A DNA stretch of 64,000 nt, taken from an uncultured virus (IMG/VR IMGVR_UViG_3300010883_027406). Taxonomy: Duplodnaviria > Heunggongvirae > Uroviricota > Caudoviricetes. Numbering within the stretch: position 1 is the first letter of the stretch; every line of letters begins with the position of its first letter. The stretch is taken from IMG/VR virus record IMGVR_UViG_3300010883_027406, positions 21,365 through 85,364 of that record. One strand, written 5' to 3'. The notes beneath the pieces were generated by a model. The model saw nothing but the letters and a program-made list of their open reading frames with translations. It made no database searches and was not told where the DNA came from. Position numbers and translations under genes: made by a program. Below are positions 23,705-46,984 of this stretch, one piece after another.

Positions 23705-23706
23705 CA

Positions 23707-23713: not shown

Positions 23714-23718
23714 TTTTT

Positions 23719-23928: not shown

Positions 23929-23949
23929 GAAGGCTTTCTCTCTTATTGG

Positions 23950-24309: not shown

Positions 24310-24310
24310 A

Positions 24311-24727: not shown

Positions 24728-25296
24728 CAAAAAAAATTGTTCATCCTAGAAATGTCCCCTCGAAGCATGACTACTATATGGGACAGGCTTTTTGGGCTTC
24801 ATCTAGATCAAAAGATCCTCGGACTCAATGTGGGGCGGTAATAGTTAGTGATGAAAATCGTCCTCTGGGTATGGGATATAATGGCCCGCCTAAAAAAATT
24901 GATGATTCTAAAATGGATTGGGGACGAAAAAACGAGACAAAACATACTGCTTTGGATCGTGCGGGAAAGTACCCATTGATTAAGCACGCAGAAGAGAATG
25001 CCATTAAATATTCGTCCGAATGCCTTTCAGGGGCGACGTTATATGTTACTGGTCCACCGTGTTCTAATTGTATGTTAAGTATTGTTGACGAGGAAATTTC
25101 AAAAGTGATTTATTTTCCTTATTTGTCCTCAGATTCGGGTTCTATGTTGGCCGATAGTGATGACTGGGAGATATGTCAAGATATTGCTCGGTTGGGGCAT
25201 GTTGGGATTGTTGCTTTTGAAGGCAATTTAAATTGGATGCGGGATCAAATGGAAATGTTCAACAACATGGGCATATTTAAGAGTCTTAAAAATTAG
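24724..25296 (+). CDS. dCMP deaminase
   Basis: SKDPRTQCGA, GYNG, HAEENA, PCSNC. Confidence 0.93.
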   Translation: MTKKIVHPRNVPSKHDYYMGQAFWASSRSKDPRTQCGAVIVSDENRPLGMGYNGPPKKIDDSKMDWGRKNETKHTALDRAGKYPLIKHAEENAIKYSSECLSGATLYVTGPPCSNCMLSIVDEEISKVIYFPYLSSDSGSMLADSDDWEICQDIARLGHVGIVAFEGNLNWMRDQMEMFNNMGIFKSLKN

Positions 25297-25311
25297 AAGT
25301 TATTCATTGCT

Positions 25312-25318
25312 ATATATA
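25312..25318 (+). promoter_or_regulatory. putative late-type promoter element
   Basis: ATATATA-atagc-ATG. Confidence 0.55.
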
Positions 25319-25323
25319 ATAGC

Positions 25324-26688
25324 ATGATTAACTATCCATCGAATACCTCTGGTAGCTGCAATAATAAAACGGGTTGTCCTACAACTTCGTATTGCCCTGA
25401 TTTTCAAATTAAAAGGTTTGATACCAAGCCTTCATTCAAGGTGTCTCTTGTAGACTGTAAAGGCCCTTTGAACATTCATGGGCTTATCGCAGAAGCCAAT
25501 ATGTGGGCTGAGGCCAAGTTAAAGAGCGCACTCACAGCAGGCACCCAAGCGACAGGCACAGTCACTATTGTTGAAGAAGCAAATTTGGTTGCAACCACTC
25601 ATTATATTACCATTACTACGACTGACGGAACTGTAATAACGGCAACAGTTACAGCAAATGGAGGAGCTACCACAACCACTAATACAAATTCTCCAACTTG
25701 GGCAATAGTGGATGCCAGCGAAGCCTCTACTGCTGTTAATTTGGCAACTTGTTTAAATGCCAATTCTAAATTGATTGCTACTGCCAGCAATGGAGTGGTG
25801 ACAATAACACAACTTGCTTCTGGTACTGCTGGAAATGCAGCTATTGCTTTGACCGATCCTGCTGCTGGTATGTCTAAAGTTGATTTTACAGGAGGAGTAG
25901 ATCCTAGTCTTTCTTTAAGTTTGGCTGATAATATTGGTTTTGAACAGGTAATGGTTGGCGATGTCATAATTATGGAACGTGCTCGACGGCCTGAGCACAT
26001 GTTGGTAAAGGCCTTTGATGAAACAAATAGTTTGATTAGCGTCCAAAGGTCTTATAACGACACAGAGGCTTTTGCATGGAAGAAGGGTTCCAAATTAAAA
26101 ATATTTAGAGTTTTAAATTCTTCTGCTGATGTTGAGTTGGTTTTTGAAGATGTTATTCAAGTAGATGGAACTTCAAAAAGCACTCTTGTTGAGGCCGATG
26201 TCCTTTATGATTGGAAAGCCAATGACACTTGCTTGTCTGGTTGCTATTTATTTGAATTTAAATTGATTAAAATGCAGGAGATATTATACTTTTTGCAAGG
26301 AGGAAGTTGGGCGGGAGAAACTCATCAAGTATCCGGTGTATATTATACGGGTACCTCCGCAACAGATAGTTCTGTTCCGTTGTCGTATGATCCTGAAACG
26401 GGAACTTTTTTGCTTCCTTCTACTCAATGGACTGGAAACAATCATGTGGTTGATCCAGATTATAAGACGGGCACATCAGAAAATGATGGATCGGTCGTAT
26501 TAAACACGACTGGAGTTGAATCTGATAATTCTGTAGTATATGGCCAAGCCTTTACTGATTCGTCATTTGCGGTGACTGATTTTGGCTGTGGTCTTTCGGA
26601 TGGGGTAGAATGGGTGCGCAGTTACCCCAAAAATAAGGAAGGTTTTTTTGTTGAAATAACAAGTTCGCCAATTTCGGAGAACTATTAA
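25324..26688 (+). CDS. putative virion structural protein (BppU-like Ig frame) with inserted ATxTVTI...FTGGVD module
   Basis: IKRFDTKP.F.V.L.D...YDW...DT..SG.Y.FEF resembles a baseplate-upper-type domain; Thr/Ala-rich insert 25549-25902. Confidence 0.55.
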   Translation: MINYPSNTSGSCNNKTGCPTTSYCPDFQIKRFDTKPSFKVSLVDCKGPLNIHGLIAEANMWAEAKLKSALTAGTQATGTVTIVEEANLVATTHYITITTTDGTVITATVTANGGATTTTNTNSPTWAIVDASEASTAVNLATCLNANSKLIATASNGVVTITQLASGTAGNAAIALTDPAAGMSKVDFTGGVDPSLSLSLADNIGFEQVMVGDVIIMERARRPEHMLVKAFDETNSLISVQRSYNDTEAFAWKKGSKLKIFRVLNSSADVELVFEDVIQVDGTSKSTLVEADVLYDWKANDTCLSGCYLFEFKLIKMQEILYFLQGGSWAGETHQVSGVYYTGTSATDSSVPLSYDPETGTFLLPSTQWTGNNHVVDPDYKTGTSENDGSVVLNTTGVESDNSVVYGQAFTDSSFAVTDFGCGLSDGVEWVRSYPKNKEGFFVEITSSPISENY

Positions 26689-26706
26689 TATTAACTTGGA
26701 GGATAG

Positions 26707-28332
26707 ATGCCTTCCGTATCTGATTTTTTAATCGAGCGGCTAGAGAACGCTAAGGTCGGGCATGTCTTTGGTCTGCCTGGGGATTATGTATTAAATTTTT
26801 ACAATAAGCTTTCCAAGTCTAAAGATATAAATCTTATAAATACAACCGATGAAAGCCATGCTGGATTTGCTGCTGACGCTTATTCTCGGATTAAAGGAAT
26901 TGGCTGTGTTTGTGTGACTTATAGCGTTGGTGGATTGAAGGTAGTTAACGCCACCGCTTGTGCCTTTGCTGAGAAATCTCCATTGATAGTTATATGTGGG
27001 TCTCCTGGGGTTAAGGAGCGTGAGAGCGGAGTTCTTTTGCATCATATGGTTAGAAGTTTTGAGAGTCAAAAAGAAGTATTTGACAACATAACATGTGCAA
27101 GTGTAGTTCTAGACAATCCTGCGACTGCTGGTTACGAAATTGATAGGGTTTTCGAGGCTCTTCATTATTACAAGCAACCAATATACATTGAGCTTCCACG
27201 AGATATAGCCGACAAGCCAATTGGGTATGATGTCAAGCTTGGAACTCCTAAATCCCCTGAAAGTGATGTTCAGAATTTAAATGAATCTCTTGAGGAGGTT
27301 GTTGATTGGATTGAGGGTGCTGAAAATCCTGTTATTTTAGCCGGTGTTGAACTTGCTCGTTTTGGCCTTGGAAAGGAATTGGTTCGATTCGCAGAGAAGA
27401 CCAATATACCCATCGCAAGCACATTATTGAGCAAGTCAGTAATAAGTGAAACTCACCCTTTGTTTTTAGGAGTTTATGCAGGCAACACTAGTGAACAATT
27501 GGTTAAAGAGTCCGTTGAAAATTCTGATTGTCTTTTAATGTTTGGAGCAATGTTGACTGATATGACGCTTGGTTTTATGCCATCCAAGTTCAAAAAAAGG
27601 AGAACGGTTTCTTGCTCTATTGATTCTTTGAAAGTTAAAAATCATGTTTATACAGATGTTGTTTTTGAGGATTTTGTTTGTGGTTTGTTTAAATCTGAAA
27701 TAACTAAAAAGCCCAACCCTGACGTTCCTAAGATTAAAGTTAAAAAATATAAATCTGTGAAAAACAATGCTTTGACTTCAACTAGAATTTTTGAAAAAAT
27801 AGGTTCTATTCTTGACGAAAACATGGCAATAGTTTGCGATATAGGCAATTCTTTGTTTGGTGCAATTGATTTAAGAGTCCACCACAGCAATCAATTTCTT
27901 TCACCTGCTTTTTATACTTCTATGGGATTTGCCATACCTGGCATTCTTGGACTGGGGATGGCTGCTCCTAATTATAGGGCAATTGCGATATTGGGGGACG
28001 GTGCATTTCAAATGTCATGCACAGAGTTGAGTACTTGTATTGACAATGATCTTAATCCTATTATTATCGTTCTTAATAATGGGGGGTATACAACAGAAAG
28101 ATTTTTGTTGGACGGTCCTTTTAATGACATTAGAAATTGGGAATATCATAAAATAACTGAAATGTTAAATGGTGGCGATGGAGTAAAGATAGAGACGGAA
28201 GGTGACTTGGACAAAGCGTTTGAGCAAGCTTTGGCAAGCAAAGAGCTTTTTATAATTAATGCTATTGTTGACCCTAAAGATATTTCCCCTGCCTTAGAAA
28301 GAATGGCAAAAGGTTTATCTAAGAGGGTGTGA
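26707..28332 (+). CDS. ThDP-dependent 2-oxo-acid decarboxylase (indolepyruvate/pyruvate decarboxylase family)
   Basis: FGLPGDY.L, E..AGFAADAYSR, TYSVGGL, LLHH, GDGAFQM...NNGGYTTER. Confidence 0.92.
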   Translation: MPSVSDFLIERLENAKVGHVFGLPGDYVLNFYNKLSKSKDINLINTTDESHAGFAADAYSRIKGIGCVCVTYSVGGLKVVNATACAFAEKSPLIVICGSPGVKERESGVLLHHMVRSFESQKEVFDNITCASVVLDNPATAGYEIDRVFEALHYYKQPIYIELPRDIADKPIGYDVKLGTPKSPESDVQNLNESLEEVVDWIEGAENPVILAGVELARFGLGKELVRFAEKTNIPIASTLLSKSVISETHPLFLGVYAGNTSEQLVKESVENSDCLLMFGAMLTDMTLGFMPSKFKKRRTVSCSIDSLKVKNHVYTDVVFEDFVCGLFKSEITKKPNPDVPKIKVKKYKSVKNNALTSTRIFEKIGSILDENMAIVCDIGNSLFGAIDLRVHHSNQFLSPAFYTSMGFAIPGILGLGMAAPNYRAIAILGDGAFQMSCTELSTCIDNDLNPIIIVLNNGGYTTERFLLDGPFNDIRNWEYHKITEMLNGGDGVKIETEGDLDKAFEQALASKELFIINAIVDPKDISPALERMAKGLSKRV

Positions 28333-28349
28333 ATTAATGGAGATTTACG

Positions 28350-29615
28350 ATGCAGTTTATTAAGCTGTATAATAAAATAACCTCATCAACTAAAAAGTCT
28401 AAGAAAATCAAAAAAAATGTTTTTTTAAATATTTTAGATGATTTTAATTATTCTTTTTATGAGAAGATTTTAAGTAAAGAAGAATTTCTTAGATTTTATA
28501 ATTTTTTTTCTGAAATTGATGTAGATCATCCCCATTTAGAGGAATTGTTCTCACCAGTTTTGGATGATTTAAATCGAATGCACGATCTTTATGTTGCATT
28601 AAACGAACTGAATAAATGTCGCCCAACTGACTTAGATTTGTTTTTTGAATTTTGTCGGTATATTAAAACCAAAAATCGTTGGTTTGAAGTTTTAAAAAAA
28701 ATAGATTCTCCATCTGTTAATCTTCTCAATATGCGATTTGTTTCGTGTAATAAAAAAAGAAATAATCTGAGACAAAATAAAAAGGTTCAAAGCATATCTT
28801 TATCAACATTGCTTTCAAGAGATTTTAGCGAATGGCAGAGTGTCTCCTCTAATTTTGATTTTTTTCATATTAATGGAAAACATTATGAGATGTATTTGTC
28901 TAAAGCCAAATCAAAAGCAAGTGTCTACGACAGGTTGGGATGTCAGTTTCTAGGGGATGAGGTAAGGAAAAATGCTAAAACTTTTGAAAACTTATATGGA
29001 GTTACAAATCATGGTTTTAGAAGAATAACTATGACTTCGGCAGCGGCTATATTGGCAAAAACTCATTCTTATGAATACGCTCCTTTTAAATCGTCAAACA
29101 CAGAGTTGACGAACGCCTTGTCGTCCAGCGAAATGATTGCTTCGATTAATGTATTTAAGTCTAAGCGATTTTTAGAAATCTTAAACAATATAGTTAATTT
29201 ATATTGTTCTCAAGTTGCTGCCAATGACGGAGTGATCGACCATAGCCTATTAAAACCTTTATCTTACTTAGAATCTGAACTCTATACGACAACCTTAGAA
29301 TCTGAACTCTATCCGACAACCGAAAGCTGCGAGTATAGCCCCAGATCGTATCCTTTGCATGATTTTTGGCCGTTGGCTAGCAAGAAAGTTAAAAATATCA
29401 TAAATCTTTTAGAATCTCATCCCGCTACGGGGGGTAGGGCTATTTTTGATAGTTATCGTGTTATAACTCCTAGTTTTTTTTTGAAATTTCCTGGATCGCA
29501 CGCTCAGTTAAGTAAGAAGTTAACGGATTTCGTTTTAACCATAAGTGAAATTATAAATCCTATAATTCTTGGTGAAAAAAATGGGAAATGTTACTTTGTA
29601 AGTTATTGGCATTGA
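28350..29615 (+). CDS. hypothetical protein
   Basis: 421 aa; internal LESELYxTT duplication. Confidence 0.7.
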   Translation: MQFIKLYNKITSSTKKSKKIKKNVFLNILDDFNYSFYEKILSKEEFLRFYNFFSEIDVDHPHLEELFSPVLDDLNRMHDLYVALNELNKCRPTDLDLFFEFCRYIKTKNRWFEVLKKIDSPSVNLLNMRFVSCNKKRNNLRQNKKVQSISLSTLLSRDFSEWQSVSSNFDFFHINGKHYEMYLSKAKSKASVYDRLGCQFLGDEVRKNAKTFENLYGVTNHGFRRITMTSAAAILAKTHSYEYAPFKSSNTELTNALSSSEMIASINVFKSKRFLEILNNIVNLYCSQVAANDGVIDHSLLKPLSYLESELYTTTLESELYPTTESCEYSPRSYPLHDFWPLASKKVKNIINLLESHPATGGRAIFDSYRVITPSFFLKFPGSHAQLSKKLTDFVLTISEIINPIILGEKNGKCYFVSYWH

Positions 29616-29634
29616 TAAAAATTAGGGGTTAAAT

Positions 29635-30051
29635 ATGTTTCCTGTAGAAATATCCGAGAAGGCTGCATCTGAAATAAAAAAAGTAATGGAAGAGCAATCT
29701 TTAGAAAATTCTGCCCTTCGTATCGGACTTCAAGGTGGCGGCTGCTCTGGATTTCAGTATCTTCTTAATTTTATAAAAGAAGAAGAGGCGTCTGAGGATG
29801 AAGATTATGTTGATCAACAAGGAGATATTAAAGTTGTTGTCGATAAAAAGAGTGCAACCTATTTGCAAGGGACAGTCATAGACTTTTATAGCGGAATTGA
29901 TAAGCGTGGGTTTGTTTTTAACAATCCAGGCGCTGCCAAGTCTTGCGGATGTGGGTCAAGTTTTTCTCCTAAGGAGTCTGGTGATGGTAGTGATGGTGCT
30001 GAGTCTGGCGGTTGTGGAACCGGCGGTTGTAGCACAGGTGGTTGCGGATGA
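29635..30051 (+). CDS. IscA/HesB A-type Fe-S carrier with Gly/Cys tail
   Basis: GGGCSGFQY, F.FNNP.A..SCGCGSSF; extra GGCGTGGCSTGGCG. Confidence 0.93.
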   Translation: MFPVEISEKAASEIKKVMEEQSLENSALRIGLQGGGCSGFQYLLNFIKEEEASEDEDYVDQQGDIKVVVDKKSATYLQGTVIDFYSGIDKRGFVFNNPGAAKSCGCGSSFSPKESGDGSDGAESGGCGTGGCSTGGCG

Positions 30052-30088
30052 TGGTAAAACGAATCGTTTGAATGTTGAGGATTAAAAA

Positions 30089-31612
30089 ATGTATATCGGT
30101 ATGAATTATGTTAATGGCGAATTTTTGCCAAATCGTTCTGACTTTTCTGTCAGTAGCCCAGCCAATGGAAGTCATTTAGGTGAATTTCCTTTAACTAGGA
30201 AAGGTGAAGTTTCTGATGCCGTAGCTGTTGCGAAACAGTCTTTTAAAAGTTGGAAACATGTCAGTAGAGTTAATCGGGCTGATCTTTTTGATAGATTATC
30301 TCAATTGATTAAGAGAGATACTTCTGCGTTGGCGGATGTTATTTCCTATGAAACAGGTAAAAACAGAAATGAATCATATGCCGAAGTGATAGAGTCCTTG
30401 CATATGTGTCAGTATGTTGCGGGATCAGGGAGACTTCCATATGGAAAGTTGGTTGGTTCCGAGTTGGCAAGTAAATCAGCAAGGGTTTTTCGCAAGCCCA
30501 AAGGTGTTGTGGCAGTAATTTCTCCATGGAATTTTCCATTGGCCATTGGTTCTTTTTGGTCTGCGGCACCTGCAATTGCAGAGGGCAATTGTGTGGTACA
30601 CAAGCCTAGCGAATTAACGCCAATGACATCGCAAATGGCGGCCAAATTGTATGGTGAAGCTGGGTTCCCTGATGGGGTTTATAATTTGATACACGGTGCG
30701 GAAGAAACAGGTAAAAATTTAGTTTCTAATCATGATGTCTCTTGCATATTATTCACAGGCAGTGCGGAAGTAGGACAGGAGATAAGAAAACATTGTGCGA
30801 CAACATGGCATAAGACCTGTTCTTGTGAGATGGGCAGCAAATCAGCCACGATGGTTTTTGAAGATGGGAATTTTGATCTTGCCACAGAAGTTTCTGTAGC
30901 CAGTGCATTTAAATTGTCGGGACAAAGATGTGTTTCTTCAAGCAGAATATTAATTCAAAGAAGTATTTATGATAAGTTTTGTTCTGCCTTTGCTAAGGCA
31001 GCATCTCAACTCCGCACAGGAGATGTGTTTTTAGATGATGATGTATATTATGGGCCTTTAATTTCTCATGATGCTTTGGAGAAAGTTGAAAGTTATAATT
31101 CTCAAGTTAGATCTGCAAGTGAATCTAGTGAAGATGTTAATGTTCTTTTGGACAGCCGAGACGGTCACTTTCAAACATCCGATGGTAATTTCTTGTCGCC
31201 ATTCGTTTATCAAGCAGAATGGTGGAATGATGTTGATGAATTAGGATGCAAGGCGTGCACAAGATCTTATTTGAAAGAAGAGGTGTTTGGGCCTCATGTG
31301 GCGTTGGTTCCTTTTGATGATTTGAATGATGCCATTAAAATTTATAATGACACCCCATATGGATTGGCTTTGGGGGCTGTCACCGACGATTTTAGAAAAC
31401 ATCGCATTCTTGAGGAAGAATGTAATACTGGCATGTTGTACATCAATGGTGGTAGCATTGCCGCAGAGAGTCATTTGCCGTTTGGAGGTATTGGAAAAAG
31501 CGGCAATGGCTGGAAGTCTGCCGCAGGTACATATCAGGCGGTCACAGAAGAAATATCTGTTACTACTAACTATGAAAAAGAAGTTGAGTGGGCACAGGGG
31601 ATGAAAAGCTAA
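30089..31612 (+). CDS. NAD(P)-dependent aldehyde dehydrogenase
   Basis: PWNFP, KPSE, FTGS, EMG.K, GQRC (catalytic Cys), EEVFGP, PFGG...SG. Confidence 0.95.
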   Translation: MYIGMNYVNGEFLPNRSDFSVSSPANGSHLGEFPLTRKGEVSDAVAVAKQSFKSWKHVSRVNRADLFDRLSQLIKRDTSALADVISYETGKNRNESYAEVIESLHMCQYVAGSGRLPYGKLVGSELASKSARVFRKPKGVVAVISPWNFPLAIGSFWSAAPAIAEGNCVVHKPSELTPMTSQMAAKLYGEAGFPDGVYNLIHGAEETGKNLVSNHDVSCILFTGSAEVGQEIRKHCATTWHKTCSCEMGSKSATMVFEDGNFDLATEVSVASAFKLSGQRCVSSSRILIQRSIYDKFCSAFAKAASQLRTGDVFLDDDVYYGPLISHDALEKVESYNSQVRSASESSEDVNVLLDSRDGHFQTSDGNFLSPFVYQAEWWNDVDELGCKACTRSYLKEEVFGPHVALVPFDDLNDAIKIYNDTPYGLALGAVTDDFRKHRILEEECNTGMLYINGGSIAAESHLPFGGIGKSGNGWKSAAGTYQAVTEEISVTTNYEKEVEWAQGMKS

Positions 31613-32544
31613 TGAAAAATATTGGTATAATTGGGCAAGGATTTGTTGGCACGGCGATTCGTGATGGATTGGTGCATGCTTTTGATGTAGTGACTTATGA
31701 TAAAAAATATCCTGATCCTACTGTAAGGGTTTGGCCAAAAAAACAGACTGTTGTTCATTATGAAGAAGATGTTGAATCTTATTCGTGTCCAACTAAAGAT
31801 AAAAACCCTATAAAGAAAATCGTTGAAGATGTTGATGGGCCAATTTTCGTTGCGGTACCAACTCCTATGAAGAAGGATGCTACTTGTGACTTAAGCATTG
31901 TTGAATCTGTTGTTTCTGAGTTAGATAGCCTTGGCGAGTCTGTTGGCAAGAAAATTGTTGTTGTAATTAAATCTACGGTCATTCCAGGCACGACCGAGGC
32001 GTTTAATAAAAAATATAAAAATGTTTATGTTTGTTACAACCCAGAGTTCCTAGTTGAAAAAACAGCGTTAGAAGATTTTAAATCACAGGATAGAATCATT
32101 GTCGGTGGGCCTAGGAAGGCAACAAAAGTCATAAAGCAATTGTATGCAACTGCTTATCCCAATGTTCCGGTGACCAAGACTAGTTCCACAATAGCAGAGC
32201 TAGTCAAATATACTACAAATTGTTTTTTAGCAACTAAGGTTTCTTTTGCTAATGAAATTAAGCAAGTTTGTGATTCTTTGGATGTAGATTATGACAAGGT
32301 AGTAGAATATGCAGTCAAAGATAAAAGATTGGGTAGCTCTCATTGGTCTGTGCCTGGTCCTGATGGAAAAATGGGTTTTGGGGGGTCTTGTTTTCCGAAA
32401 GATTTAAATGCCTTATTGTCTAAGGCATATGAACTTGATGTAAAATGCAACACACTTTATGGCGCATGGTTAACTAATTTAGAAGTACGTCCTGAAAAGG
32501 ATTGGGAAAACTTGATTGGCCGTGCAGTTTCAGAAAGAGATTAG
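31612..32544 (+). CDS. UDP-glucose/GDP-mannose dehydrogenase family (short form lacking C-terminal domain)
   Basis: GQGFVG, VPTP, KSTVIPGT, NPEFL, AELVKY..N.FLA.KVSFANE, GFGGSCFPKD. Confidence 0.92.
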   Translation: MKNIGIIGQGFVGTAIRDGLVHAFDVVTYDKKYPDPTVRVWPKKQTVVHYEEDVESYSCPTKDKNPIKKIVEDVDGPIFVAVPTPMKKDATCDLSIVESVVSELDSLGESVGKKIVVVIKSTVIPGTTEAFNKKYKNVYVCYNPEFLVEKTALEDFKSQDRIIVGGPRKATKVIKQLYATAYPNVPVTKTSSTIAELVKYTTNCFLATKVSFANEIKQVCDSLDVDYDKVVEYAVKDKRLGSSHWSVPGPDGKMGFGGSCFPKDLNALLSKAYELDVKCNTLYGAWLTNLEVRPEKDWENLIGRAVSERD

Positions 32545-40439: not shown

Positions 40440-41003
40440 TTGATGGCAGTGGTTAGCGAACTTTCCTTGAAGTGGAATGTAGGTAAACTTCCCCTTAAGA
40501 ATTATCGTGTTGAGGGGTGTTGTATTGTGCCCGGCCAGAATACTACTGGATTTGACACTGGTCAAACCACTCCTGACACAGGAGCGCCCAATCCTAATGC
40601 TGGCCTTAAGTGCGAGTCTAGATTTGTTGTTAATATATTAGCAAGAGATCTGGGTGATTTGTGCCTTCAGTTAAGAAAGAGGGAATTTTATTGGCCTATC
40701 TGCAAAATACAGGTTTTTAACCAACCGGCACAGGGGGCAAACCTTAAAGGATTTGGTAATCCATTGGGACCACCCAACACCGATTGCTGTTCTGACATAT
40801 ATGGAGACCCCACAGAAGCAGCGCCATCTGGTCCTAATGTGCCTAATGCAAATGAAGTGGAATTTCAAACTTTAACTGACATTCCACATGTCGTATGGGC
40901 TAATGTTCCTGAATGTATAGACTATAATGTTACCCATATATACAAAAAGTTAAATTTTTCAATTGCAGTTGAAAGGGTGTTTGTTTTTGGGGGCGGTGAA
41001 TAA
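40440..41003 (+). CDS. hypothetical protein, probably structural (coupled to large downstream gene)
   Basis: 187 aa; TAATG overlap with 1217-aa gene; GGAG SD. Confidence 0.7.
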   Translation: MMAVVSELSLKWNVGKLPLKNYRVEGCCIVPGQNTTGFDTGQTTPDTGAPNPNAGLKCESRFVVNILARDLGDLCLQLRKREFYWPICKIQVFNQPAQGANLKGFGNPLGPPNTDCCSDIYGDPTEAAPSGPNVPNANEVEFQTLTDIPHVVWANVPECIDYNVTHIYKKLNFSIAVERVFVFGGGE

Positions 41004-44000
41004 TGGCGCATATGAATTTAGGAGGCAGCGCCGTTGCTGTAATTGCCCGTCCTCATGGTAACTATGTTGGGATTGATGGAGTTGTTGTAGAAGGACAGGC
41101 GACAATAGTTTCGTCGGCACAATCGTACCAGGGCACTGCGTCTCCGGTTATTTCTGGGGAATCCATCGTAGTATCCAGTTTTACTCCAAGATATTATTCT
41201 CCACGCCCAGCAACCACCACAGTTACTATAATTGATAAGATTGAACTTGGCACTGGAGATAAGGTCACTTTACGATCAGCAAGTGCCCCAAGTATAGATA
41301 TTGATTTTGCTGTAGATCTCGATACCTCAGCCACATCCACAGTCACTATAACTGACTATGCCGAACTGAATGATGGAGATAAGGTCGCTTTACGATCAAC
41401 AAGTGCTCCGAGCACAGACATTGATTTTGCTGTAGATTCTGATGTTGCTGCAACCGCCACAGTCACAATAACCGATTATGCTGAACTTAATGCTGGAGAC
41501 AAGGTGACTTTGCGAGCGACAAACGCTCCAAGCGTAGATATTGATTTTGATATTGCCTGGGGCACACATGCTGAGAGCTACATCGCTTCTGCGTTGGCAA
41601 ATCTTATTAATGCAAATTCTAATTTCTCAGCTTCAGCAAATAATACGGTTGTAACAATCACGCAATCTATTGAAGGAGCAGCGGGGAACACTACGGTTGT
41701 TTTAACAGATAGTGGTAACTCTGGTATGTCTAAAACGGACTTTACTGGTGGTGTTGACGGGGACTGGGATGTTGGTAGTTCAAACGCTGATGCCGCTGCT
41801 GCTTTAGCGATCTTTATTAATGCAAATTCTAATTTCTCAGCTTCAGCAAATAATGCGGTCGTAACAATCACACAATCTATTGGCAGCGTAGCGGGGAACA
41901 CTACTGTTTCTTTGACAGACAGTGGTGACGCTGGTATGTCTAAAACAGATTTTACTGGTGGTTCTGATGGAAGTTGGGATTTAGGTGCTTCAAATAATGA
42001 AGCTGCTTCTGCTTTGGCAATTTTTATTAATGCAAACGCCAATTTTTCAGCGGCAGCAAATAATGCCGTTGTAACAATCACACAATCTACTAAAGGAACA
42101 GTGGGCAACACTACTGTTTCTTTGACAGATAGTGGTGACGTTGGTATGTCGAAAACAGATTTTAGTGGTGGTGTAGACAACCCAATTGAAGGAGGTATGG
42201 CACTAGGAGGGGTGTATGATGTGGTATCTACTGCATATTCTTTTTCTGGTTCGGGCGGCATTCAGTCTTCTGGGTCGCTTGATGAACATTGGACTGCCAA
42301 TCCTCGCATTTTGCTTCGTATCATACCAAGTGGAGGAATTAGTCTTGGCGGCTTGGCCGGTGCTTTTATATCAAATTATGTTGGCCTTGTGCCACTAGAG
42401 TTGGGAGGCACTTCTCTTCCATTTAATTCAACTGTTTATTTATATGCGGGAGTTGGCGGACCCGTTATGTCGGGAGAAGTATACGTAGCCTCGCCATCAT
42501 GGACATATTCCGCCACTGGCGGGATTTCTTTAGGGGGAGAGTATTATCCAAGGTTTAATGTTATAGGAAATGATGTTACTACATCTGTTGAATCTGCTTC
42601 TACATTTGTTAGTGACGCAACTGTGGGAACCGTTGATTGGACTTCTCCTTCCTCAGCCTCATCAAATGATGGACAGGATGCTTCTGTTGTTTTGTCGGCA
42701 GGAGTTATTTCTAAATACTTAAAATCTACTAATTTTGGTTTTAGTATTCCATCTGTTGATACGATTATGGGCGTGAGAGTTCTTGTTGATAAACACCAGA
42801 CAGGTGGCGATAGTATTAAAGATGAATCAATTAAGTTGGTTAAAGATGGTACTGTTCAAGGAGATGATAAAATTCTCCCTGCTGCTAATAACTGGCTGTA
42901 TTCTCCGCCACCGTGGGGAGTGATTACATCTATTGATGAAAGTGTTTCCAATTATCAAAATGATGGATCGGTAAAATTACTTGCTAATGGCTCGTATGCG
43001 TTCAACAGTACGAACACAACGCATTCGGTGTCGCACACTGCTGCCTACGATAGCCAAAGCTTCATGAGATTTGTGGATGTCAATATTCCTAGTGATGCTA
43101 AAATTACTTCTGCTAAGATAACACTTCTAGTTGATGGGAATACCAATGCAAATGGGCAAACTGCGAAAATTTGTGCCAACGCTTCTGATGACGCCGGTCT
43201 GCCCCTGACTGCACATGCAGTTACGGGGGCCGTTCCCACTACATCTAATGTGACTTGGACATTTGATAATACTCAAAGTGGAAATTTCATAGAGACTCCC
43301 GATATTTCTAGTGTAATTCAAGAGATAGTGGATCGTGATGGGTGGACGCATCCTGACTCCGCAATGGTGGTTTATTTTAGAGACCCATCAAGTGCTGGAA
43401 GTGATTGGGAAATTCAATTTCGTGCTTTTGGACAAAATCAGTCTGGAACTGGGTCAGCTTTTCTAGAAATAACTTATTATGATCCTGCTTTTGTAGAATA
43501 TGGTTTTGATGATAACGACACGCCGGTACCCGGTATCGATTGGCCTCCGTTTGACACTTGGGGTCTTGATTTAACTTATGACGATATAAATGATTCTACT
43601 TTTGGAGTAGTTCTTTCTGCAAAGAATGACTTGCCTTCTTCTGCTGCCGGGTCGGTTTCTGCTCTTATAGATTATGTTGAAATGTCTATTTATCATTTGA
43701 AGATAGGTGCGACAATAGGCGGCTCTGCAATTGCCGGTGTTCCTTTTAGGAACTATGTTAGTTCGGGAGGGATTACTATTTCTGGGGAGGCCATACTCGG
43801 AGAATCTTCTTCTTATAGTTATGTTGGTTCTGGTGGTGCGACATTGTCAGGAACCTCCCACATTGATACTACTGGCGGAGTGTCTGGGTATTTTGAGGAT
43901 TTGACCACGTCAGTTAAATATGATGTTACTTATTCTGGTTTTGATGTATTTTTTGGTACAGGCGAGGCCCCGGAACATGTTGTCGATCTTCCTGATGTGG

Positions 44001-44656
44001 TTAATTTGTGTGGATGCGACCCTGTTAATGCTATGGTTAATTTAAAACATAATTTATTGCATGCCTCTAAACTTGGGAAGTTTATACAAAGGAATGCTTT
44101 TACCCTTCCAGTCGATATTAAATTGATTTATAATTCTATTACGGGTTCTTGGAGAAATAATTTTCACTATGAAAGTATTTCTGGTGAAGAAATTTTTGAT
44201 GTTCTTTTTGAATGGTCTTGCATTCCTGAGATAGGATCTAATGATCTTGGCTATGATGCGTGGAAGTTTTCTCTTCTAGTTCACTATCACCATGAGCCGG
44301 AAGTAGATAAAGATACTAGAGTCGTTTTGGTGTTTCCAAAAGGTCATTTTTGTAGTAGAGGACAAAGACTTGATGCATCATTTGAAATTGATACACAAAG
44401 TAAAATAACCACGGTGACAGCCTCGTCAGCGGCTTCTAGTAGTTTTGTTGTTGATACTATAATAAATGATGATATTCGGTTATTTGTCGGAAATTATTGG
44501 AAGGAACATCCTTTAGAGTTAAAAATAGAAGAGAAAGTTACGACTTCAACTGCGTTTATTGAAGTGGATCTGGGACATATACTTCCTCCAGAAGATTCCC
44601 AAACCGGGGAGGTAGCAACGGCGGAGTCATCTGCCTTGCTTGATACATATTTGTAA
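41003..44656 (+). CDS. large mosaic putative virion fibre/decoration protein with nested domain insertions
   Basis: Gly-rich Y.G.GGI.xxG backbone repeats; 3x40-aa plus 3x70-aa repeats; jelly-roll-like and DNRLRE/CBM-like segments. Confidence 0.7.
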   Translation: MAHMNLGGSAVAVIARPHGNYVGIDGVVVEGQATIVSSAQSYQGTASPVISGESIVVSSFTPRYYSPRPATTTVTIIDKIELGTGDKVTLRSASAPSIDIDFAVDLDTSATSTVTITDYAELNDGDKVALRSTSAPSTDIDFAVDSDVAATATVTITDYAELNAGDKVTLRATNAPSVDIDFDIAWGTHAESYIASALANLINANSNFSASANNTVVTITQSIEGAAGNTTVVLTDSGNSGMSKTDFTGGVDGDWDVGSSNADAAAALAIFINANSNFSASANNAVVTITQSIGSVAGNTTVSLTDSGDAGMSKTDFTGGSDGSWDLGASNNEAASALAIFINANANFSAAANNAVVTITQSTKGTVGNTTVSLTDSGDVGMSKTDFSGGVDNPIEGGMALGGVYDVVSTAYSFSGSGGIQSSGSLDEHWTANPRILLRIIPSGGISLGGLAGAFISNYVGLVPLELGGTSLPFNSTVYLYAGVGGPVMSGEVYVASPSWTYSATGGISLGGEYYPRFNVIGNDVTTSVESASTFVSDATVGTVDWTSPSSASSNDGQDASVVLSAGVISKYLKSTNFGFSIPSVDTIMGVRVLVDKHQTGGDSIKDESIKLVKDGTVQGDDKILPAANNWLYSPPPWGVITSIDESVSNYQNDGSVKLLANGSYAFNSTNTTHSVSHTAAYDSQSFMRFVDVNIPSDAKITSAKITLLVDGNTNANGQTAKICANASDDAGLPLTAHAVTGAVPTTSNVTWTFDNTQSGNFIETPDISSVIQEIVDRDGWTHPDSAMVVYFRDPSSAGSDWEIQFRAFGQNQSGTGSAFLEITYYDPAFVEYGFDDNDTPVPGIDWPPFDTWGLDLTYDDINDSTFGVVLSAKNDLPSSAAGSVSALIDYVEMSIYHLKIGATIGGSAIAGVPFRNYVSSGGITISGEAILGESSSYSYVGSGGATLSGTSHIDTTGGVSGYFEDLTTSVKYDVTYSGFDVFFGTGEAPEHVVDLPDVVNLCGCDPVNAMVNLKHNLLHASKLGKFIQRNAFTLPVDIKLIYNSITGSWRNNFHYESISGEEIFDVLFEWSCIPEIGSNDLGYDAWKFSLLVHYHHEPEVDKDTRVVLVFPKGHFCSRGQRLDASFEIDTQSKITTVTASSAASSSFVVDTIINDDIRLFVGNYWKEHPLELKIEEKVTTSTAFIEVDLGHILPPEDSQTGEVATAESSALLDTYL
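41210..42178 (+). repeat. coding repeats: three ~120-bp A units then three 210-bp B units
   Basis: A = ATxTVTITDYAEL..GDKV.LR...APS.DIDF; B = A.ALA..INANSNFSASANN.VVTITQS..GNTTV.LTDSG..GMSKTDFTGG.D. Confidence 0.95.
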
Positions 44657-44667: not shown

Positions 44668-44916
44668 ATGGTTGTTTTGATTTGTATTTTATTGGTGTTG
44701 GTTTTAATTAATTTGATTTTTTCTATATTCATTGGCATTATTCTTGTTAGAGTTCTTGAATCCGTCATGCGTTTTGGGCGAGTTAAACCTGCACCGAAGC
44801 CGGACCCTAGAACCAGCAGCGGCCTGCCACCTGGCTTAGTTGATGTTCCGCCATTATATGATGTTCATGGCAATGTTGGTGATACACATGGTATGCAAGA
44901 TCAAACTGTTAAGTAG
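44668..44916 (+). CDS. small membrane protein
   Basis: very hydrophobic N-terminal 30 aa, Pro-rich tail. Confidence 0.7.
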   Translation: MVVLICILLVLVLINLIFSIFIGIILVRVLESVMRFGRVKPAPKPDPRTSSGLPPGLVDVPPLYDVHGNVGDTHGMQDQTVK

Positions 44917-45937
44917 ATCGATAGACTCCCATTGCGGCTTCTGAATTGCATTTGGCTCTGTGGAGCAAGGCAGCCTGTGCTTTTTTAACAGTTCTTAACT
45001 CCATGTCTCCGCCCCACGCTTGTAACGCAGGTTGTTGCAGGGCACGTCCATAAGAAAATGATAATCGCCAAGGCCATTTCCCTATGCCTGGAATGATTAA
45101 CTTGTTTAAGAGATTAAGATGTTTTGTGGCGTCTTCGAAGCTTTGTCCGCCTGATAAAAAGGCTATGCCTGGTACGGCTGGGGGGACGGTTCTAGATATA
45201 CATTTTAAAGTTTTTTCTGCAACTTCTCTTCCTGTAATGTCAGCATTGAGACTGTTGTATCCTTCTAGAACCATGTTGCATTTTAAAATCATTCCTTCTA
45301 AAAACACATTTAAAAAGTGTAGTTCTGAAAACGTGTTTTTTAATACTTTTTCTGTTATTTCAAGAGATTGGTCAACATTTTGATTGCCGTCCATGAGAAC
45401 TTCTGGTTCGACAATTGGCACTAATCCACATTCTTGGGACATTGCTGCAAAACGAGCTAAATTTATGGCGTTTTCACGAATACAGGTGTAAGACGGGATT
45501 TCTTTTCCTACGGAGATAACTGCTCTCCATTTGGTGAATGAGGCGCCAAGTCTTTTGTATTCTTTTAACCTTTCTCTTAATCCGTCTAAGCCTTCTGTTA
45601 ATGTTTCTCTTTCGTGTTGGGCCATTTCTTTTGCGCCTTTGTCTACTTTTATTCCGGTCAAGATTCCTTTATTTGATAGATATTTAGGAAATGGAGTTCC
45701 GTCAAATGTTTTCTGATTTATAGTTTCATCATACATGATGACGCCACTGATGTACTGCTCTAGCCCTTCTGTTGTAAAAAGAATATTTCTATAGGCCCTT
45801 CTTAATTCATGCGTTGATCCGGTATTAATGGACTTAAATCTTTTGGTTATGGTCGGGGTGCTTTCGTCTGCCGCAAGGATTCCTTTTCCTAGAGACACCA
45901 ATTGCTGCGCAGTTTTAGATAATTTGGTTTTTTCCAT
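44909..45937 (-). CDS. class I fructose-bisphosphate aldolase
   Basis: GKGILAADES, GIKVDKG, FTKWRAV, GLVPIVEPEV, ILKCNMV (Schiff-base Lys), FLSGGQ, SFSYGRALQ. Confidence 0.96.
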   Translation of the reverse strand: MEKTKLSKTAQQLVSLGKGILAADESTPTITKRFKSINTGSTHELRRAYRNILFTTEGLEQYISGVIMYDETINQKTFDGTPFPKYLSNKGILTGIKVDKGAKEMAQHERETLTEGLDGLRERLKEYKRLGASFTKWRAVISVGKEIPSYTCIRENAINLARFAAMSQECGLVPIVEPEVLMDGNQNVDQSLEITEKVLKNTFSELHFLNVFLEGMILKCNMVLEGYNSLNADITGREVAEKTLKCISRTVPPAVPGIAFLSGGQSFEDATKHLNLLNKLIIPGIGKWPWRLSFSYGRALQQPALQAWGGDMELRTVKKAQAALLHRAKCNSEAAMGVYRST

Positions 45938-46042
45938 TTTTAGTTTCCTTTTGAATAGTAAAGCACATTGACCTTGTGACGTTTTTTAATTACTTTATCA
46001 TAAGATTTCAGGCAGCCCATCCGTAGAGAGAAGCGGCAGATT

Positions 46043-46984
46043 ATGACTAAGGAAGTTGAATTTGTTAGATTTAATTCCTATAGGAATTTTGGAGTTGAGA
46101 TCGAGGTCGGGAGTGAAGTTTGCCCAGATTCGATAGCTCACTCTATTATAAAAAGTTCTCATTGTAAAGATGTGAAAATTTTTGATTGGAATCAGTCAAT
46201 TAACAATAGTGATTGGCATGTTAAGAGTGATGCGAGTTGCGGAATAGGAGAGGATGCTGGTTGGGAGATAGCATCATATGTTGGTTCTGGATATTTGGAT
46301 GCATTAGATATTTCTAAAACAGCATCTGCCCTGAAAGTGACAACTGGGGCAAAAATTAATAGAAATTGTGGTTTGCATGTTCATGTCAATGTAGAAGATT
46401 TTAGCGTGAGAGATATGGCTATTTTATTGGCATATTGGATTAAAATAGAAAATACACTTTCCTTCGCAGTACCTTCGTGGCGTGTTGATGGGGTATTTTG
46501 CCAATTAATTAACAAATTGCAAGCACATTATAAAAGAAACGAATATTCTCCTGATTATTTCTGGACTATCAATAAACCAAGAAACTTATCTGCTCATGAT
46601 AATTTCTATAAGATGTTTACTCTTAATTTAGTGAACTACGAATCGTCTTTGCAAGGTCTAATTGACAGGAAGACTGTTGAATTCCGCATGCCGGAAGGCA
46701 CATTGAATGAAAGCGATATTATTAATTGGATAAGACTTTTTGTTACTTTTGTTGATAATTGTAAAAAAAAGTTGCATATGCCATCGAATACGGTTTCTGT
46801 TTCTTTGTCGGAAACTCTTAATATCCTTGGACTGAGTCATAAAGAAAAGTTTTATATTTTAAGTAAGGGTATGTTTAAAACTAAAAGTTGGCTTCTTAAA
46901 AGGATAATGCAACAGGCTGTAAAAAGAAAAAGTGATCGACTCTACAGGTCTTCTTTTAAATTTCTTAATTTTATGGAACATTAA
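46043..46984 (+). CDS. putative amidoligase (COOH-NH2 ligase type 2)
   Basis: FGVEIE, DAS, WEIAS, CGLHVHV, TVEFR..GT. Confidence 0.85.
   Translation: MTKEVEFVRFNSYRNFGVEIEVGSEVCPDSIAHSIIKSSHCKDVKIFDWNQSINNSDWHVKSDASCGIGEDAGWEIASYVGSGYLDALDISKTASALKVTTGAKINRNCGLHVHVNVEDFSVRDMAILLAYWIKIENTLSFAVPSWRVDGVFCQLINKLQAHYKRNEYSPDYFWTINKPRNLSAHDNFYKMFTLNLVNYESSLQGLIDRKTVEFRMPEGTLNESDIINWIRLFVTFVDNCKKKLHMPSNTVSVSLSETLNILGLSHKEKFYILSKGMFKTKSWLLKRIMQQAVKRKSDRLYRSSFKFLNFMEH

What the first reader, a model, noticed from the sequence alone, without database searches (positions are those of the whole stretch)
41210..42178. Russian-doll protein: one domain inserted into itself twice (A-A-A-B-B-B)
Seen: three 40-aa A units are followed by three 70-aa B units rather than AB-AB-AB. 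The 454-aa protein at 25324 holds a single A+B module (ATGTVTI...LA..LNANS.L.A.A.N.VVTITQ..G.AGN..I.LTD..GMSK.DFTGGVD), indicating A and B are halves of one domain. Inference: topology is A1[A2[A3-B1]B2]B3, each copy inserted into a loop of the previous one, forming a telescoping stalk from an out-and-back chain whose length could be tuned by paired repeat expansion. Nested domains are known in T4 sheath gp18, and the TVTI...GN...FTGG.D pattern recalls sheath insertion domains, but homotypic self-nesting is unusual.
Basis: partly seen in the sequence, partly recalled or inferred. Interest (0 to 1): 0.8.

Follow-up and report, generated by a model that had tools for sequence, protein, structure and literature searches.

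The report
Domain nested inside itself three times
A large marine-phage protein appears to carry three copies of one small surface domain, each inserted into a loop of the previous copy like Russian dolls, and related phage proteins repeat the same trick up to six deep.

Summary
The gene at 41003..44656 (+, 1217 aa) has three 40-aa A units followed by three 70-aa B units. A+B is one module of about 105-113 aa. It occurs as a contiguous unit in 88 of 128 homologues and once in the 454-aa protein at 25324.

- A 53%-identical relative (P0164) lacks exactly residues ~68-394, so the block enters and leaves the host protein at one point.
- Homologues carry N-parts and C-parts in equal numbers (n = 2, 3, 5, 6), with breakpoints in four different loops.
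- Where one protein has different breakpoints at different levels, they close last-in-first-out in all three independent architectures.
- A split-chain ESMFold2 test gave weak support (0.47 against 0.00 for controls).

AlphaFold2 resolved only the innermost module and neither supports nor contradicts the nesting. That module has the fold of the outer insertion domain of phage tail sheaths, T7-like nozzles and flagellin/FliD (Z about 10).

There are exceptions: one unbalanced relative and some lone B units. Same-fold recursive nesting has a published precedent, the SI3 region of cyanobacterial RNA polymerase. I therefore rate this a new variant of a known kind, in a family with no Pfam model. 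The protein's function is inferred only.

The parts
41003..44656 (+). Gene for the 1217-aa host protein that carries the nest (P0001)
   Evidence: ORF list and translation. Relatives P0003, P0134 and P0136 are full length and P0135 is partial.
41003..41203 (+). Host N-terminal segment, aa 1-67, ending ...FTPRYYSP
   Evidence: BLASTP aligns P0001 aa 1-67 to P0164 aa 1-75 (59% identity, E 2e-17).
41207..41326 (+). A1, aa 69-108: N-part (strands b1-b3) of the outermost module
   Evidence: HMM hit aa 70-101 = positions 3-34; unit boundaries.
41327..41446 (+). A2, aa 109-148: N-part of the middle module
   Evidence: HMM hit aa 108-142 = positions 1-35.
41447..41776 (+). A3+B1, aa 149-258: the innermost, contiguous module
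   Evidence: HMM hit aa 149-252 = positions 2-112. AlphaFold2 block pLDDT is 84-97 for model residues 91-190. VIA-align Z is 10.4 and 10.1 to a nozzle and a sheath domain.
41777..41986 (+). B2, aa 259-328: C-part (helix, b4-b7) of the middle module. The Trp-containing linker before it (aa ~253-258) belongs with it.
   Evidence: HMM hit aa 252-322 = positions 42-112.
41987..42196 (+). B3, aa 329-398: C-part of the outermost module
   Evidence: HMM hit aa 322-393 = positions 42-113.
42197..44653 (+). Host body, aa 399-1217: Gly-rich beta segments, a possible CBM96-like region and a Cys-containing C-terminal domain
   Evidence: 52% identical to P0164 aa ~75-866. No Pfam or PDB sequence match. The CBM96 lead comes only from the protein atlas, score 0.81.
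25324..26688 (+). Second module-bearing gene (P0002, 454 aa); single contiguous module at aa 74-193 (nt 25543-25902)
40440..41003 (+). 187-aa Cys-rich ORF whose stop overlaps the start of the nest gene; conserved next to the orthologue in L082
   Evidence: No Pfam or PHROG hit.

Best explanation
Residues ~68-394 of the 1217-aa protein hold three copies of one beta/alpha module of about 105-113 aa. Its element order is b1-b2-b3-helix-b4-b5-b6-b7. The fold is that of the outer insertion domain of phage tail sheaths, T7-like nozzle proteins and flagellin/FliD.

Each copy is inserted into the b3/helix loop of the previous one, giving A1[A2[A3-B1]B2]B3. The whole nest is itself an insertion into a loop of a conserved host protein.

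The module's two ends lie together, as they must in a domain that is itself always found as an insertion. It can therefore be dropped into any tolerant surface loop, including its own. The chain runs outward through three N-parts, folds the tip module, and returns through three C-parts that complete the middle and then the outer module. The result should be a rigid out-and-back projection about three modules long.

Shown here: the repeat anatomy, the single-domain nature of A+B, the clean insertion into the host, and the bracket-like rule across homologues. Inferred: the physical pairing A2-B2 and A1-B3, the end-on stacking, and the role as an exposed projection or spacer on a virion protein of a large marine phage.
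For: 1. A+B is one domain. Ninety full-length contiguous modules occur in 88 of 128 proteins. There were 108 single full-module clusters among 163 proteins. In the AlphaFold2 model, blocks covering residues 91-190 (A3+B1) have pLDDT 84-97. VIA-align gives Z 10.4 (rmsd 1.8 A over 86 residues) to the P-SCSP1u nozzle 8i4m_A 148-240 and Z 10.1 to the A-1(L) sheath 8kee_A 92-184. It also gives Z 8-9.5 to PhiTE, Milano and Mu sheaths, 8.4 to FliC 4nx9 and about 7 to FliD D2-D3. All of these targets are contiguous stretches.

2. The block is a clean insertion. P0164 (885 aa) aligns to P0001 aa 1-67 and then, by reading, from about aa 394 to 1201 at 52-59% identity. The long BLASTP alignment begins nominally at aa 332. 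P0164 has no module HMM hit. The nest therefore starts and ends at one point of the host.

3. Counts are equal. All 5 proteins with this host body that retain the block (4 relatives plus P0133, the window's own sequence) are 3+3. The automated parse gave 19 balanced and 22 unbalanced internal multi-unit clusters. By reading, 18 of the 22 unbalanced ones are balanced, because the HMM missed short or divergent parts. Examples are P0076 at 6+6, P0156 at 5+5, P0051, P0056 and P0161 at 3+3, and P0120 at 3+3 plus 2+2. The tail-sheath protein P0158 also reads as 3+3.

4. There are four recurrent breakpoints, at HMM positions ~15-19, ~33-50, ~72-77 and ~94-98. All lie between secondary-structure elements: b1/b2, b3/helix, b4/b5 and b6/b7.

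5. Unlike breakpoints close last-in-first-out.
- The 648-aa family (P0132, L022, L024-L028) opens to positions 35/45, 94 and 77. It closes from position 73, then with a short last-strand motif (about position 95), then from position 32.
- The related 528-aa (P0067, L050) and 673-aa (P0034, L068) forms follow the same rule.
- P0100 opens to 46 and 16 and closes from 19 and then 42.
- P0159, by reading, opens to about 72 and 37 and closes from about 38 and then 73.
That is 3 of 3 independent architectures last-in-first-out and none first-in-first-out.

6. Outer and inner modules can be of different subtypes with matching halves, as in P0012 and P0061. This points to insertion of whole modules.

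7. Split-chain ESMFold2, with aa 66-148 against aa 149-400, scored 0.47 (runs 0.47, 0.36, 0.50) against a best control of 0.00. The tool's verdict was 'weak support'. That mark was reached by 58 of 80 solved complexes and 2 of 110 mismatched pairs, but a score of 0.60 or under was seen in only 7 of those 80 and in both mismatches that passed. The runs agree in at least 96% of contacts. Partner pLDDT was 86-87, and 44 when chain 2 was replaced by an unrelated protein. My own 5-row alignment was used, so the calibration holds only roughly.
Against: No confident 3D model of the outer two levels exists. AlphaFold2 with 44 rows gave mean pLDDT 69.9 and pTM 0.46, with blocks covering the outer units mostly at 38-77 (three blocks in B3 reach 86-92) and the first strands of A1/A2 and the last strands of B2/B3 not formed. 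AlphaFold2 with 5 orthologue rows gave mean pLDDT 37.9. I had no coordinates or contact maps, so pairing was never observed directly.

The complex result is only 'weak support'. A units are 60-70% identical to each other, so it cannot say which A pairs with which B.

The equal-count rule has exceptions:
- The L046 gene, which is frameshifted, reads as 2 N-parts against 3 C-parts.
- Four clusters stayed unresolved (P0047, P0083, P0114, P0115).
- The parse listed 22 single C, 10 single O and 8 single internal clusters that I did not all examine. Examples of lone B-like units are P0068/L032 aa 306-399, P0021 and P0041.

Most balanced verdicts beyond the 19 automatic ones rest on my reading of printed sequences. 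Unit-by-unit divergence among orthologues does not show a general A1/B3 correlation. The three last-in-first-out architectures are few, and the first comprises related proteins. The function is unsupported by any direct datum. The gene sits among metabolic genes, not next to recognisable virion genes.
Confidence: 0.75

Rival explanations
1. There are two independent tandem arrays. A is an autonomous small beta unit repeated three times and B is an autonomous helix-plus-sheet unit repeated three times. They form a linear rod, with no A-B pairing beyond the A3-B1 junction.
For: B-like units occur without a detected A partner: 22 single C clusters, for example P0068/L032 aa 306-399. L046 has more C-parts than N-parts. 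AlphaFold2 built helix plus two strands for B2 and B3 without pairing them to A1 and A2.
Against: A+B is a single contiguous domain in 88 of 128 homologues and in solved structures. The block is cleanly absent from P0164, so its ends meet. Counts are equal at n = 2, 3, 5 and 6, at four different cut points that fall inside the domain. Unlike breakpoints close last-in-first-out. Matching subtypes of outer halves are seen in P0012 and P0061. In the ESMFold2 run, the A1A2 chain had pLDDT 86-87 with chain 2 present and 44 without it.
Confidence: 0.07
2. Complementation happens between chains. In an oligomer, as many phage fibre and baseplate proteins are, the N-parts of one chain complete the C-parts of a neighbouring chain. 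This would resemble donor-strand exchange and give an intertwined or polymeric assembly rather than three self-contained nested domains.
For: The arrays of single-strand N-parts (six 17-aa units in P0076) resemble donor strands. The split-chain test shows that N-parts can dock in trans. Nothing I ran distinguishes pairing within a chain from pairing between chains.
Against: There are no linkers between levels, and the innermost module is contiguous. The same module is a monomeric insertion domain in solved sheath, nozzle and flagellin structures. The bracket rule and the clean insertion are what nesting within one chain predicts, and a swap does not require them. There is no evidence of oligomerisation.
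Confidence: 0.12
3. The layout is an artefact, either a mis-assembly of repeats or a chance run of similar low-complexity sequence.
For: Metagenomic contigs often collapse or shuffle repeats. Run contigs break inside the B array.
Against: The same 3+3 order appears in four related database proteins and in a separate metagenome contig with conserved neighbours. Contigs of two runs span all three A units without indels. Units are only 69-78% identical in DNA, which is too divergent to be collapsed. The frame is open throughout.
Confidence: 0.01

Closest known systems
SI3 insertion of cyanobacterial RNA polymerase beta' (rpoC2): recursive nesting of sandwich-barrel hybrid motifs
   Same: One small insertion-competent fold is inserted into copies of itself many times. 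[quoted passage not shown] It has the same out-and-back chain and the same A1-B1-C-B2-A2 logic.
   Different: The fold and the protein family are unrelated, and SI3 is a cellular enzyme, not a virion protein. Here the nesting recurs in many different host proteins, uses four alternative loops, and can branch (P0072) or carry a foreign domain at the tip (P0161). I did not compare folds with the hybrid motif directly.
Outer (insertion) domains of contractile-tail sheath proteins (A-1(L), PhiTE, Milano, Mu; nested domains of T4 gp18)
   Same: The module has this fold: Z 8-10, rmsd 1.7-2.8 A over 85-105 residues, 13-23% identity. Relatives of the module sit in sheath proteins. P0158 matches Gp18_domIII_N above its cut-off and Phage_sheath_1C below it. 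P0144 matches Phage_sheath_1 and Phage_sheath_1C just below their cut-offs here, though both are listed in the precomputed Pfam column. P0158 reads as a 3+3 nest placed directly after the gp18 domain III N-terminal region.
   Different: P0001 itself has no sheath domain. That the nested domains of T4 gp18 have different folds is recalled (Aksyuk et al. 2009), not read here. In this protein the nested domains are copies of one module.
Flagellin and FliD outer domains (D2/D3)
   Same: Out-and-back topology with D3 as a loop insertion of D2 in FliD (PMC8533109, passages read). Fold similarity is Z 8.4 to FliC 4nx9 and about 6-7 to FliD D2-D3. The helix carries an 'IN'-like motif.
   Different: No Pfam Flagellin_IN match at E up to 1. 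There are no D0/D1 helices. Giant flagellins are described as tandem, not nested, duplications (PMC6248924, passages read).
Insertion domain of T7-like tail nozzle proteins (P-SCSP1u, Kp9, Kp7, T7 gp12)
   Same: This gave the best structural match: 8i4m_A residues 148-240, Z 10.4. It is a contiguous insertion in a virion protein.
   Different: It is a single copy there. P0001 shows no other similarity to nozzle proteins.

Membership tests
Sheath / nozzle / flagellin outer-domain fold | Same three-dimensional fold over most of the domain | tested here: met
   VIA-align Z 10.4 (8i4m_A) and 10.1 (8kee_A), with 18 chains at Z of 8 or more. The aligned model range is 85-199, which is A3+B1. Foldseek E was 1.9e-3 at best. 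This applies only to the innermost module, which is the only confident part of the model.
Sheath / nozzle / flagellin outer-domain fold | Occurs as a contiguous insertion with both ends at one point of a host protein | tested here: met
   The matched chain ranges are contiguous stretches inside longer chains. The whole block is absent between ...YYSP and EGGM... in P0164.
Sheath / nozzle / flagellin outer-domain fold | Detectable sequence family (Pfam, PHROG or PDB sequence) | tested here: not met
   No Pfam family at E up to 1 covers the module. Only a weak phrog_28344 hit, E 0.0017. No PDB sequence hit at E up to 10.
Tail sheath protein (Phage_sheath_1 / gp18-like) | Sheath core domains present in the protein | tested here: not met
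   Pfam found no sheath domain in P0001, and tblastn against phage records found nothing. Some relatives of the module are sheath proteins (P0144, P0158), but P0001 is not.
Recursive same-fold domain insertion (as in RNA polymerase SI3) | Copies of one domain family split into N- and C-parts that surround a further copy | tested here: met
   The HMM parse of P0001 gives N-part, N-part, full module, C-part, C-part with complementary coordinates: positions 3-34, 1-35, 2-112, 42-112 and 42-113.
Recursive same-fold domain insertion (as in RNA polymerase SI3) | Segments pair last-in-first-out | tested here: met
   This cannot be tested in P0001 itself because all its breakpoints are the same. In relatives with unlike breakpoints, 3 of 3 independent architectures close last-in-first-out.
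Recursive same-fold domain insertion (as in RNA polymerase SI3) | Each split copy forms an intact domain in three dimensions | tested here: inconclusive
   AlphaFold2 did not resolve the outer levels. The split-chain ESMFold2 test gave weak support, 0.47 against 0.00 for controls. No coordinates were available to me.
Flagellin_IN motif (Pfam PF07196; accession recalled) | Match to the Pfam model | tested here: not met
   It is not among the Pfam hits at E up to 1. The resemblance of the helix motif is my recollection only.
CBM96-like carbohydrate-binding domain (host body) | Match to PF24517 | tested here: inconclusive
   The atlas feature score is 0.81, below the tool's 0.9 line. There is no Pfam hit at E up to 1.

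The most novel reading that the evidence does not exclude
Marine phages possess an unannotated, highly mobile module of about 113 aa that builds projections on virion proteins by recursive self-insertion. The architecture follows a bracket grammar. Depth ranges from 1 to at least 6, and any of four loops can act as the host site. One host can carry two inserts (P0072). A foreign domain of about 200 aa can sit at the tip (P0161). If the nested copies really stack end to end, this is a natural, modular, length-programmable stalk that folds from an out-and-back chain. It would be the second and far more versatile example of same-fold recursion after RNA polymerase SI3.
Probability: 0.6. Interest if true: 0.8.

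Novelty: new variant of a known kind. Interest (0 to 1): 0.7.

Why it matters
Domain insertion is common, but a domain inserted repeatedly into copies of itself is rare. The only precedent I found in print is the SI3 region of cyanobacterial RNA polymerase.

This family shows the phenomenon in many unrelated host proteins, including sheath, baseplate gpI-like, tail and unknown proteins. It occurs at several loops and depths, which gives a natural series for three questions:
- How does such a chain fold, given that the outer copies cannot be completed until the inner ones are made?
- How are such genes generated? Matching subtypes point to insertion of whole modules.
- Does depth set the reach of a virion projection?

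It also defines a conserved module with no Pfam model. It was found in 79 viral contigs at 45-88% identity. Ordinary tandem-repeat logic mis-segments it, which matters for annotation and for structure prediction, since AlphaFold2 failed on the outer levels. As a design principle it offers rigid spacers whose two ends stay together.

Tried and rejected
- AlphaFold2 on aa 60-405 with a 44-row alignment resolved only the inner module. With a clean 5-row orthologue alignment it failed outright, with mean pLDDT 37.9 and pTM 0.21. Neither run bears on the nesting either way.
- The tools return no coordinates or contact maps, so pairing could not be read from any model (one search confirmed that no model file is available).
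- tblastn of P0001 against 50,697 phage records found no match.
- The search for related loci with P0001 found no relative in viral contigs and one in metagenome contigs (L082).
I built the tighter alignment A2 and repeated the scan.
- Sequence search of PDB with the block and with the host body found nothing useful.
- Pfam and PHROGs on P0001, P0002 and neighbours gave no family for the module or the host body.
- The protein atlas gave only a sub-threshold CBM96 lead.
- Repeat-number variation in nature: contigs of 4 runs (of 20 listed) laid on 41003-42400 showed no indels or joints, but no contig spans the whole B array. This says little either way.
- Unit-by-unit divergence among orthologues showed no general A1/B3 correlation. 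One local pair of changes co-occurs: a motif in the A1 hairpin and one at the end of the B3 helix, both in P0134, P0135 and P0136 but not in P0001 or P0003. It reflects a single phylogenetic split, so I give it little weight.
- The idea that all insertion sites lie on one face (every second loop) fits the four recurrent sites. It rests on a parity argument, not on coordinates, and P0072 seems to use the helix/b4 loop.
- Literature searches for self-nesting, Russian-doll or matryoshka proteins, sheath or flagellin nesting and domain-insertion surveys found only the SI3 precedent. They cover open-access text only.
Full report
**Observation**

The window is part of an 85-kb IMG/VR virus record that CheckV rates 17% complete. 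The finding lies in one ORF, 41003..44656 (+), 1217 aa (P0001).

Tandem Repeats Finder reports a 120-nt period at 41254-41549 (score 373) and a 210-nt period at 41584-42173 (score 793). A protein self dot plot has strong diagonals only at offsets 40/80 (aa 71-146) and 70/140 (aa 193-326).

The units are A1-A3 (aa 69-188, 40 aa each) and B1-B3 (aa 189-398, 70 aa each). Identity is 60-70% between A units and 66-73% between B units in protein, and 69-78% in DNA.

**A and B are halves of one module**

A HMMER search of 1.84 billion representative proteins with aa 66-400 gave 126 hits at E up to 1e-3. A local phmmer with A3+B1 found 90 full-length contiguous modules in 88 of the 128 proteins then in hand.

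I built a module HMM from these and iterated it to 113 positions.

AlphaFold2 on aa 60-405 with a 44-row alignment folded A3+B1 with pLDDT of about 84-97. Its elements are b1, b2, b3, helix, b4, b5, b6, b7. That part superposes on contiguous insertion domains of solved structures:
- the nozzle of cyanophage P-SCSP1u (8i4m_A 148-240; Z 10.4, rmsd 1.8 A, 86 residues)
- the sheath of cyanophage A-1(L) (8kee_A 92-184; Z 10.1)
- the sheaths of PhiTE, Milano and Mu (Z 8.4-9.5)
- FliC of P. aeruginosa (Z 8.4), FliD D2-D3 (about 7) and T4 gp11 (6.5)

Foldseek E-values were 2e-3 at best. No Pfam, PHROG or PDB sequence match covers the module.

The module also occurs in proteins with sheath, P2 gpI-like and Phage-tail_3 domains. 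It is therefore a surface or insertion domain of tailed-phage virion proteins.

**The whole block is a clean insertion**

I searched with the host body alone (aa 420-1217). This found the 3+3 relatives and one relative of 885 aa, P0164, 53% identical over 98% of that region. BLASTP aligns P0001 aa 1-67 to P0164 aa 1-75. By reading, the homology resumes at about P0001 aa 394, which matches P0164 aa 75, and runs on to P0001 aa 1201. The long BLASTP alignment begins nominally at aa 332. P0164 has no module HMM hit.

In P0164 the two host residues that flank the nest in P0001 are adjacent. The block's first and last residues must therefore meet in space. An out-and-back nest predicts this. A linear A-A-A-B-B-B rod does not.

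**The rule in homologues**

I parsed 163 proteins and the ORFs of 79 viral loci with the HMM.

All five proteins that share this host body and retain the block read N-part, N-part, full module, C-part, C-part. These are P0003, P0134, P0135, P0136 and P0133, which is the window's own sequence. L082, a metagenome contig with the same neighbours (PhoH, a 189-aa Cys-rich ORF, the nest gene, then a class I aldolase on the other strand), is also 3+3.

Other families cut the module at other places:
- After b1, P0076 has six 17-aa first strands followed by six 85-aa remainders. P0156 has 5+5, P0051 and P0161 have 3+3, and P0120 has 3+3 and 2+2. P0022, P0080, P0031, P0119 and P0126 have 1+1 around a full module.
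- After b3, as in P0001, the examples are P0056 (3+3), P0089 (2+2), P0061 with L067, L069 and L070, and the tail-sheath protein P0158 (3+3, just after its Gp18_domIII_N region).
- At the b4/b5 turn, the examples are P0007, P0012, P0130 and P0131.
- Before b7, the examples are P0013 and the outer levels of P0132, P0067 and P0034.

Mapped onto the model, these four sites are the loops b1/b2, b3/helix, b4/b5 and b6/b7.

The automated census gave the following clusters:

| Cluster type | Count |
|---|---|
| Single full module | 108 |
| Balanced, internal | 19 |
| Balanced, touching a protein end | 2 |
| Unbalanced, internal | 22 |
| Unbalanced, touching a protein end (fragments) | 9 |
| Purely tandem | 3 |

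Reading the sequences, 18 of the 22 unbalanced internal clusters are balanced. The HMM had missed 16-aa first strands, a short last-strand motif or divergent halves. Four remain unresolved (P0047, P0083, P0114, P0115).

True tandem full modules also exist (P0148, P0129/L038, P0159, L044).

**Order of closing**

P0001 cannot show which A pairs with which B, because all its cuts are the same. Relatives with unlike cuts can.

| Architecture | N-parts end at HMM position | C-parts start at |
|---|---|---|
| 648-aa family (P0132, L022, L024-L028) | 35/45, 94, 77 | 73, short last-strand motif (~95), 32 |
| P0100 | 46, 16 | 19, 42 |
| P0159 (by reading) | ~72, ~37 | ~38, ~73 |

In each case a full module lies between the N-parts and the C-parts. 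The 528-aa form (P0067, L050) and the 673-aa form (P0034, L068) follow the same rule as the 648-aa family. The 528-aa and 648-aa forms differ by exactly one extra level, about 120 aa.

All three independent architectures are last-in-first-out and none is first-in-first-out.

In P0012 and P0061 the outer and inner modules belong to different subtypes, and the two outer halves match each other in subtype. Whole modules were therefore inserted into modules. Two separate partial duplications would not give this pattern.

P0072 hosts two inserts in one module. P0161 carries a foreign stretch of about 200 aa inside its innermost module.

**Structure tests of the nest**

The first AlphaFold2 job left the outer levels mostly at pLDDT 38-77, although three blocks in B3 reached 86-92. 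It did not form their edge strands (mean 69.9, pTM 0.46). A second job with only five orthologue rows failed, with mean pLDDT 37.9. I had no access to coordinates.

A split-chain ESMFold2 test used A1A2 (aa 66-148) against A3B1B2B3 (aa 149-400). It scored 0.47 (0.47, 0.36, 0.50), against a best control of 0.00. The tool calls this 'weak support':
- The mark was reached by 58 of 80 solved complexes and 2 of 110 mismatches.
- Scores of 0.60 or under were seen in only 7 of the 80 and in both mismatches that passed.
- My own alignment was used, so the calibration holds only roughly.
- The runs agree in at least 96% of contacts.
- Partner pLDDT was 86-87, and 44 when chain 2 was replaced. Chain 2 fell from 86-89 to 54-60 when the partner was replaced.

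This fits mutual completion, but it cannot assign pairs.

**Against the reading**

- L046 is a podovirus-like contig with the gene between portal and capsid genes. Its gene is frameshifted and reads as 2 N-parts against 3 C-parts.
- Lone B-like units occur (P0068/L032, P0021, P0041). I did not examine all 22 single C, 10 single O and 8 single internal clusters.
- Divergence per unit among orthologues shows no general A1/B3 coupling.
- Contigs of four runs show no repeat-number variants, but none spans the B array.
- The gene's neighbours are metabolic genes: PhoH, class I aldolase, an IDO-like gene, a TPP enzyme, aldehyde dehydrogenase, and PrkA/DUF444/SpoVR. Unknown neighbours have no PHROG match. 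A virion role is therefore inferred only from where the module's relatives sit.

**How it most likely works**

The module's ends meet, so it can be inserted into a loop. Three copies are nested at the b3/helix loop inside a loop of the host protein. The chain goes out through A1, A2 and A3, folds the tip module, and returns through B1, B2 and B3, completing the middle and then the outer copy.

If the elements run up and down the long axis, the four recurrent sites all lie opposite the termini, and nested copies would stack end on end. That is a parity inference, with one apparent exception in P0072.

A projection about three modules long on an exposed protein of a large marine phage is the most likely result.

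**Comparison and novelty**

Out-and-back nesting is textbook for flagellin and FliD; D3 is a loop insertion of D2 (PMC8533109, passages). It is also textbook for T4 gp18, which I recall but did not read here.

Same-fold recursion has a precedent. PMC13114784 (passages) describes eight domains in a 6-level recursive insertion in cyanobacterial rpoC2 SI3, mostly single hybrid motifs. That paper cites Iyer 2003, Shen 2023 and Alvarez-Carreno 2024, which I did not read. Giant flagellins are described as tandem duplications (PMC6248924, passages). My other searches found nothing on self-nesting in phage proteins. Supplements and non-open papers were not searched.

I rate this a new variant of a known kind. 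The fold is different, the module has no Pfam model, the nesting appears in many host proteins, and it uses several loops, with branching and tip payloads.

Noticed in passing
window 7924-9270 and 12178-14688 (+), with 10094-11314 (-) between: A DnaE-type DNA polymerase III alpha is split into two ORFs. The first has PHP plus the start of the pol3-alpha domain. The second has the rest of that domain plus the finger and HhH domains. They are about 2.9 kb apart, and the gap holds a 406-aa reverse-strand ORF with no Pfam or PHROG hit.
   Followed up: no
window 1438-6376 (+): A PrkA kinase, DUF444 and SpoVR-like trio (the bacterial yeaG-yeaH-ycgB type of cluster) is encoded on a viral contig.
   Followed up: no
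window 22613-32544 and 44909-46984: There is a dense set of metabolic genes on a virus record. They are an indoleamine 2,3-dioxygenase-like gene, dCMP deaminase-like ORF (my reading of the sequence, not tested), a TPP-dependent enzyme, aldehyde dehydrogenase, a UDP-glucose dehydrogenase-like gene, class I fructose-bisphosphate aldolase and an amidoligase.
   Followed up: partly
window 40440-41003 (+): A 187-aa Cys-rich ORF has a stop that overlaps the start of the nest gene. The same pair is conserved in metagenome contig L082 (1833-2402 and 2402-6100). It has no family match. It could be a partner or chaperone of the nest protein.
   Followed up: partly
window 41578-42261 (-) and 25602-26000 (-): Long antisense ORFs of 227 and 132 aa lie over the B-unit regions of both module genes. 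The same is seen in L082 (3217-3681, -). They are most likely by-products of the repeat composition.
   Followed up: no
L046 4406-6290: In a podovirus-like contig the nested-module gene sits between the portal and the scaffold and capsid genes. It is split by a frameshift at about 4836-4849. This is the one clear case of unequal N-part and C-part counts.
   Followed up: partly
P0161 aa 221-438; P0072 aa 161-554: P0161 carries an unrelated stretch of about 200 aa inside its innermost module, before the last strand, like a payload at the tip. P0072 has one host module with two separate inserted modules, a branched nest.
   Followed up: partly
loci L003-L081: One subtype of the module is conserved at 45-88% identity across 79 viral contigs, in host proteins from about 240 to 3352 aa. 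This suggests either a constrained binding surface or recent spread as a mobile cassette.
   Followed up: partly
P0155 aa 84-230: A module-bearing Phage-tail_3 protein also shows weak Hint/intein-like matches near its N-terminus.
   Followed up: no
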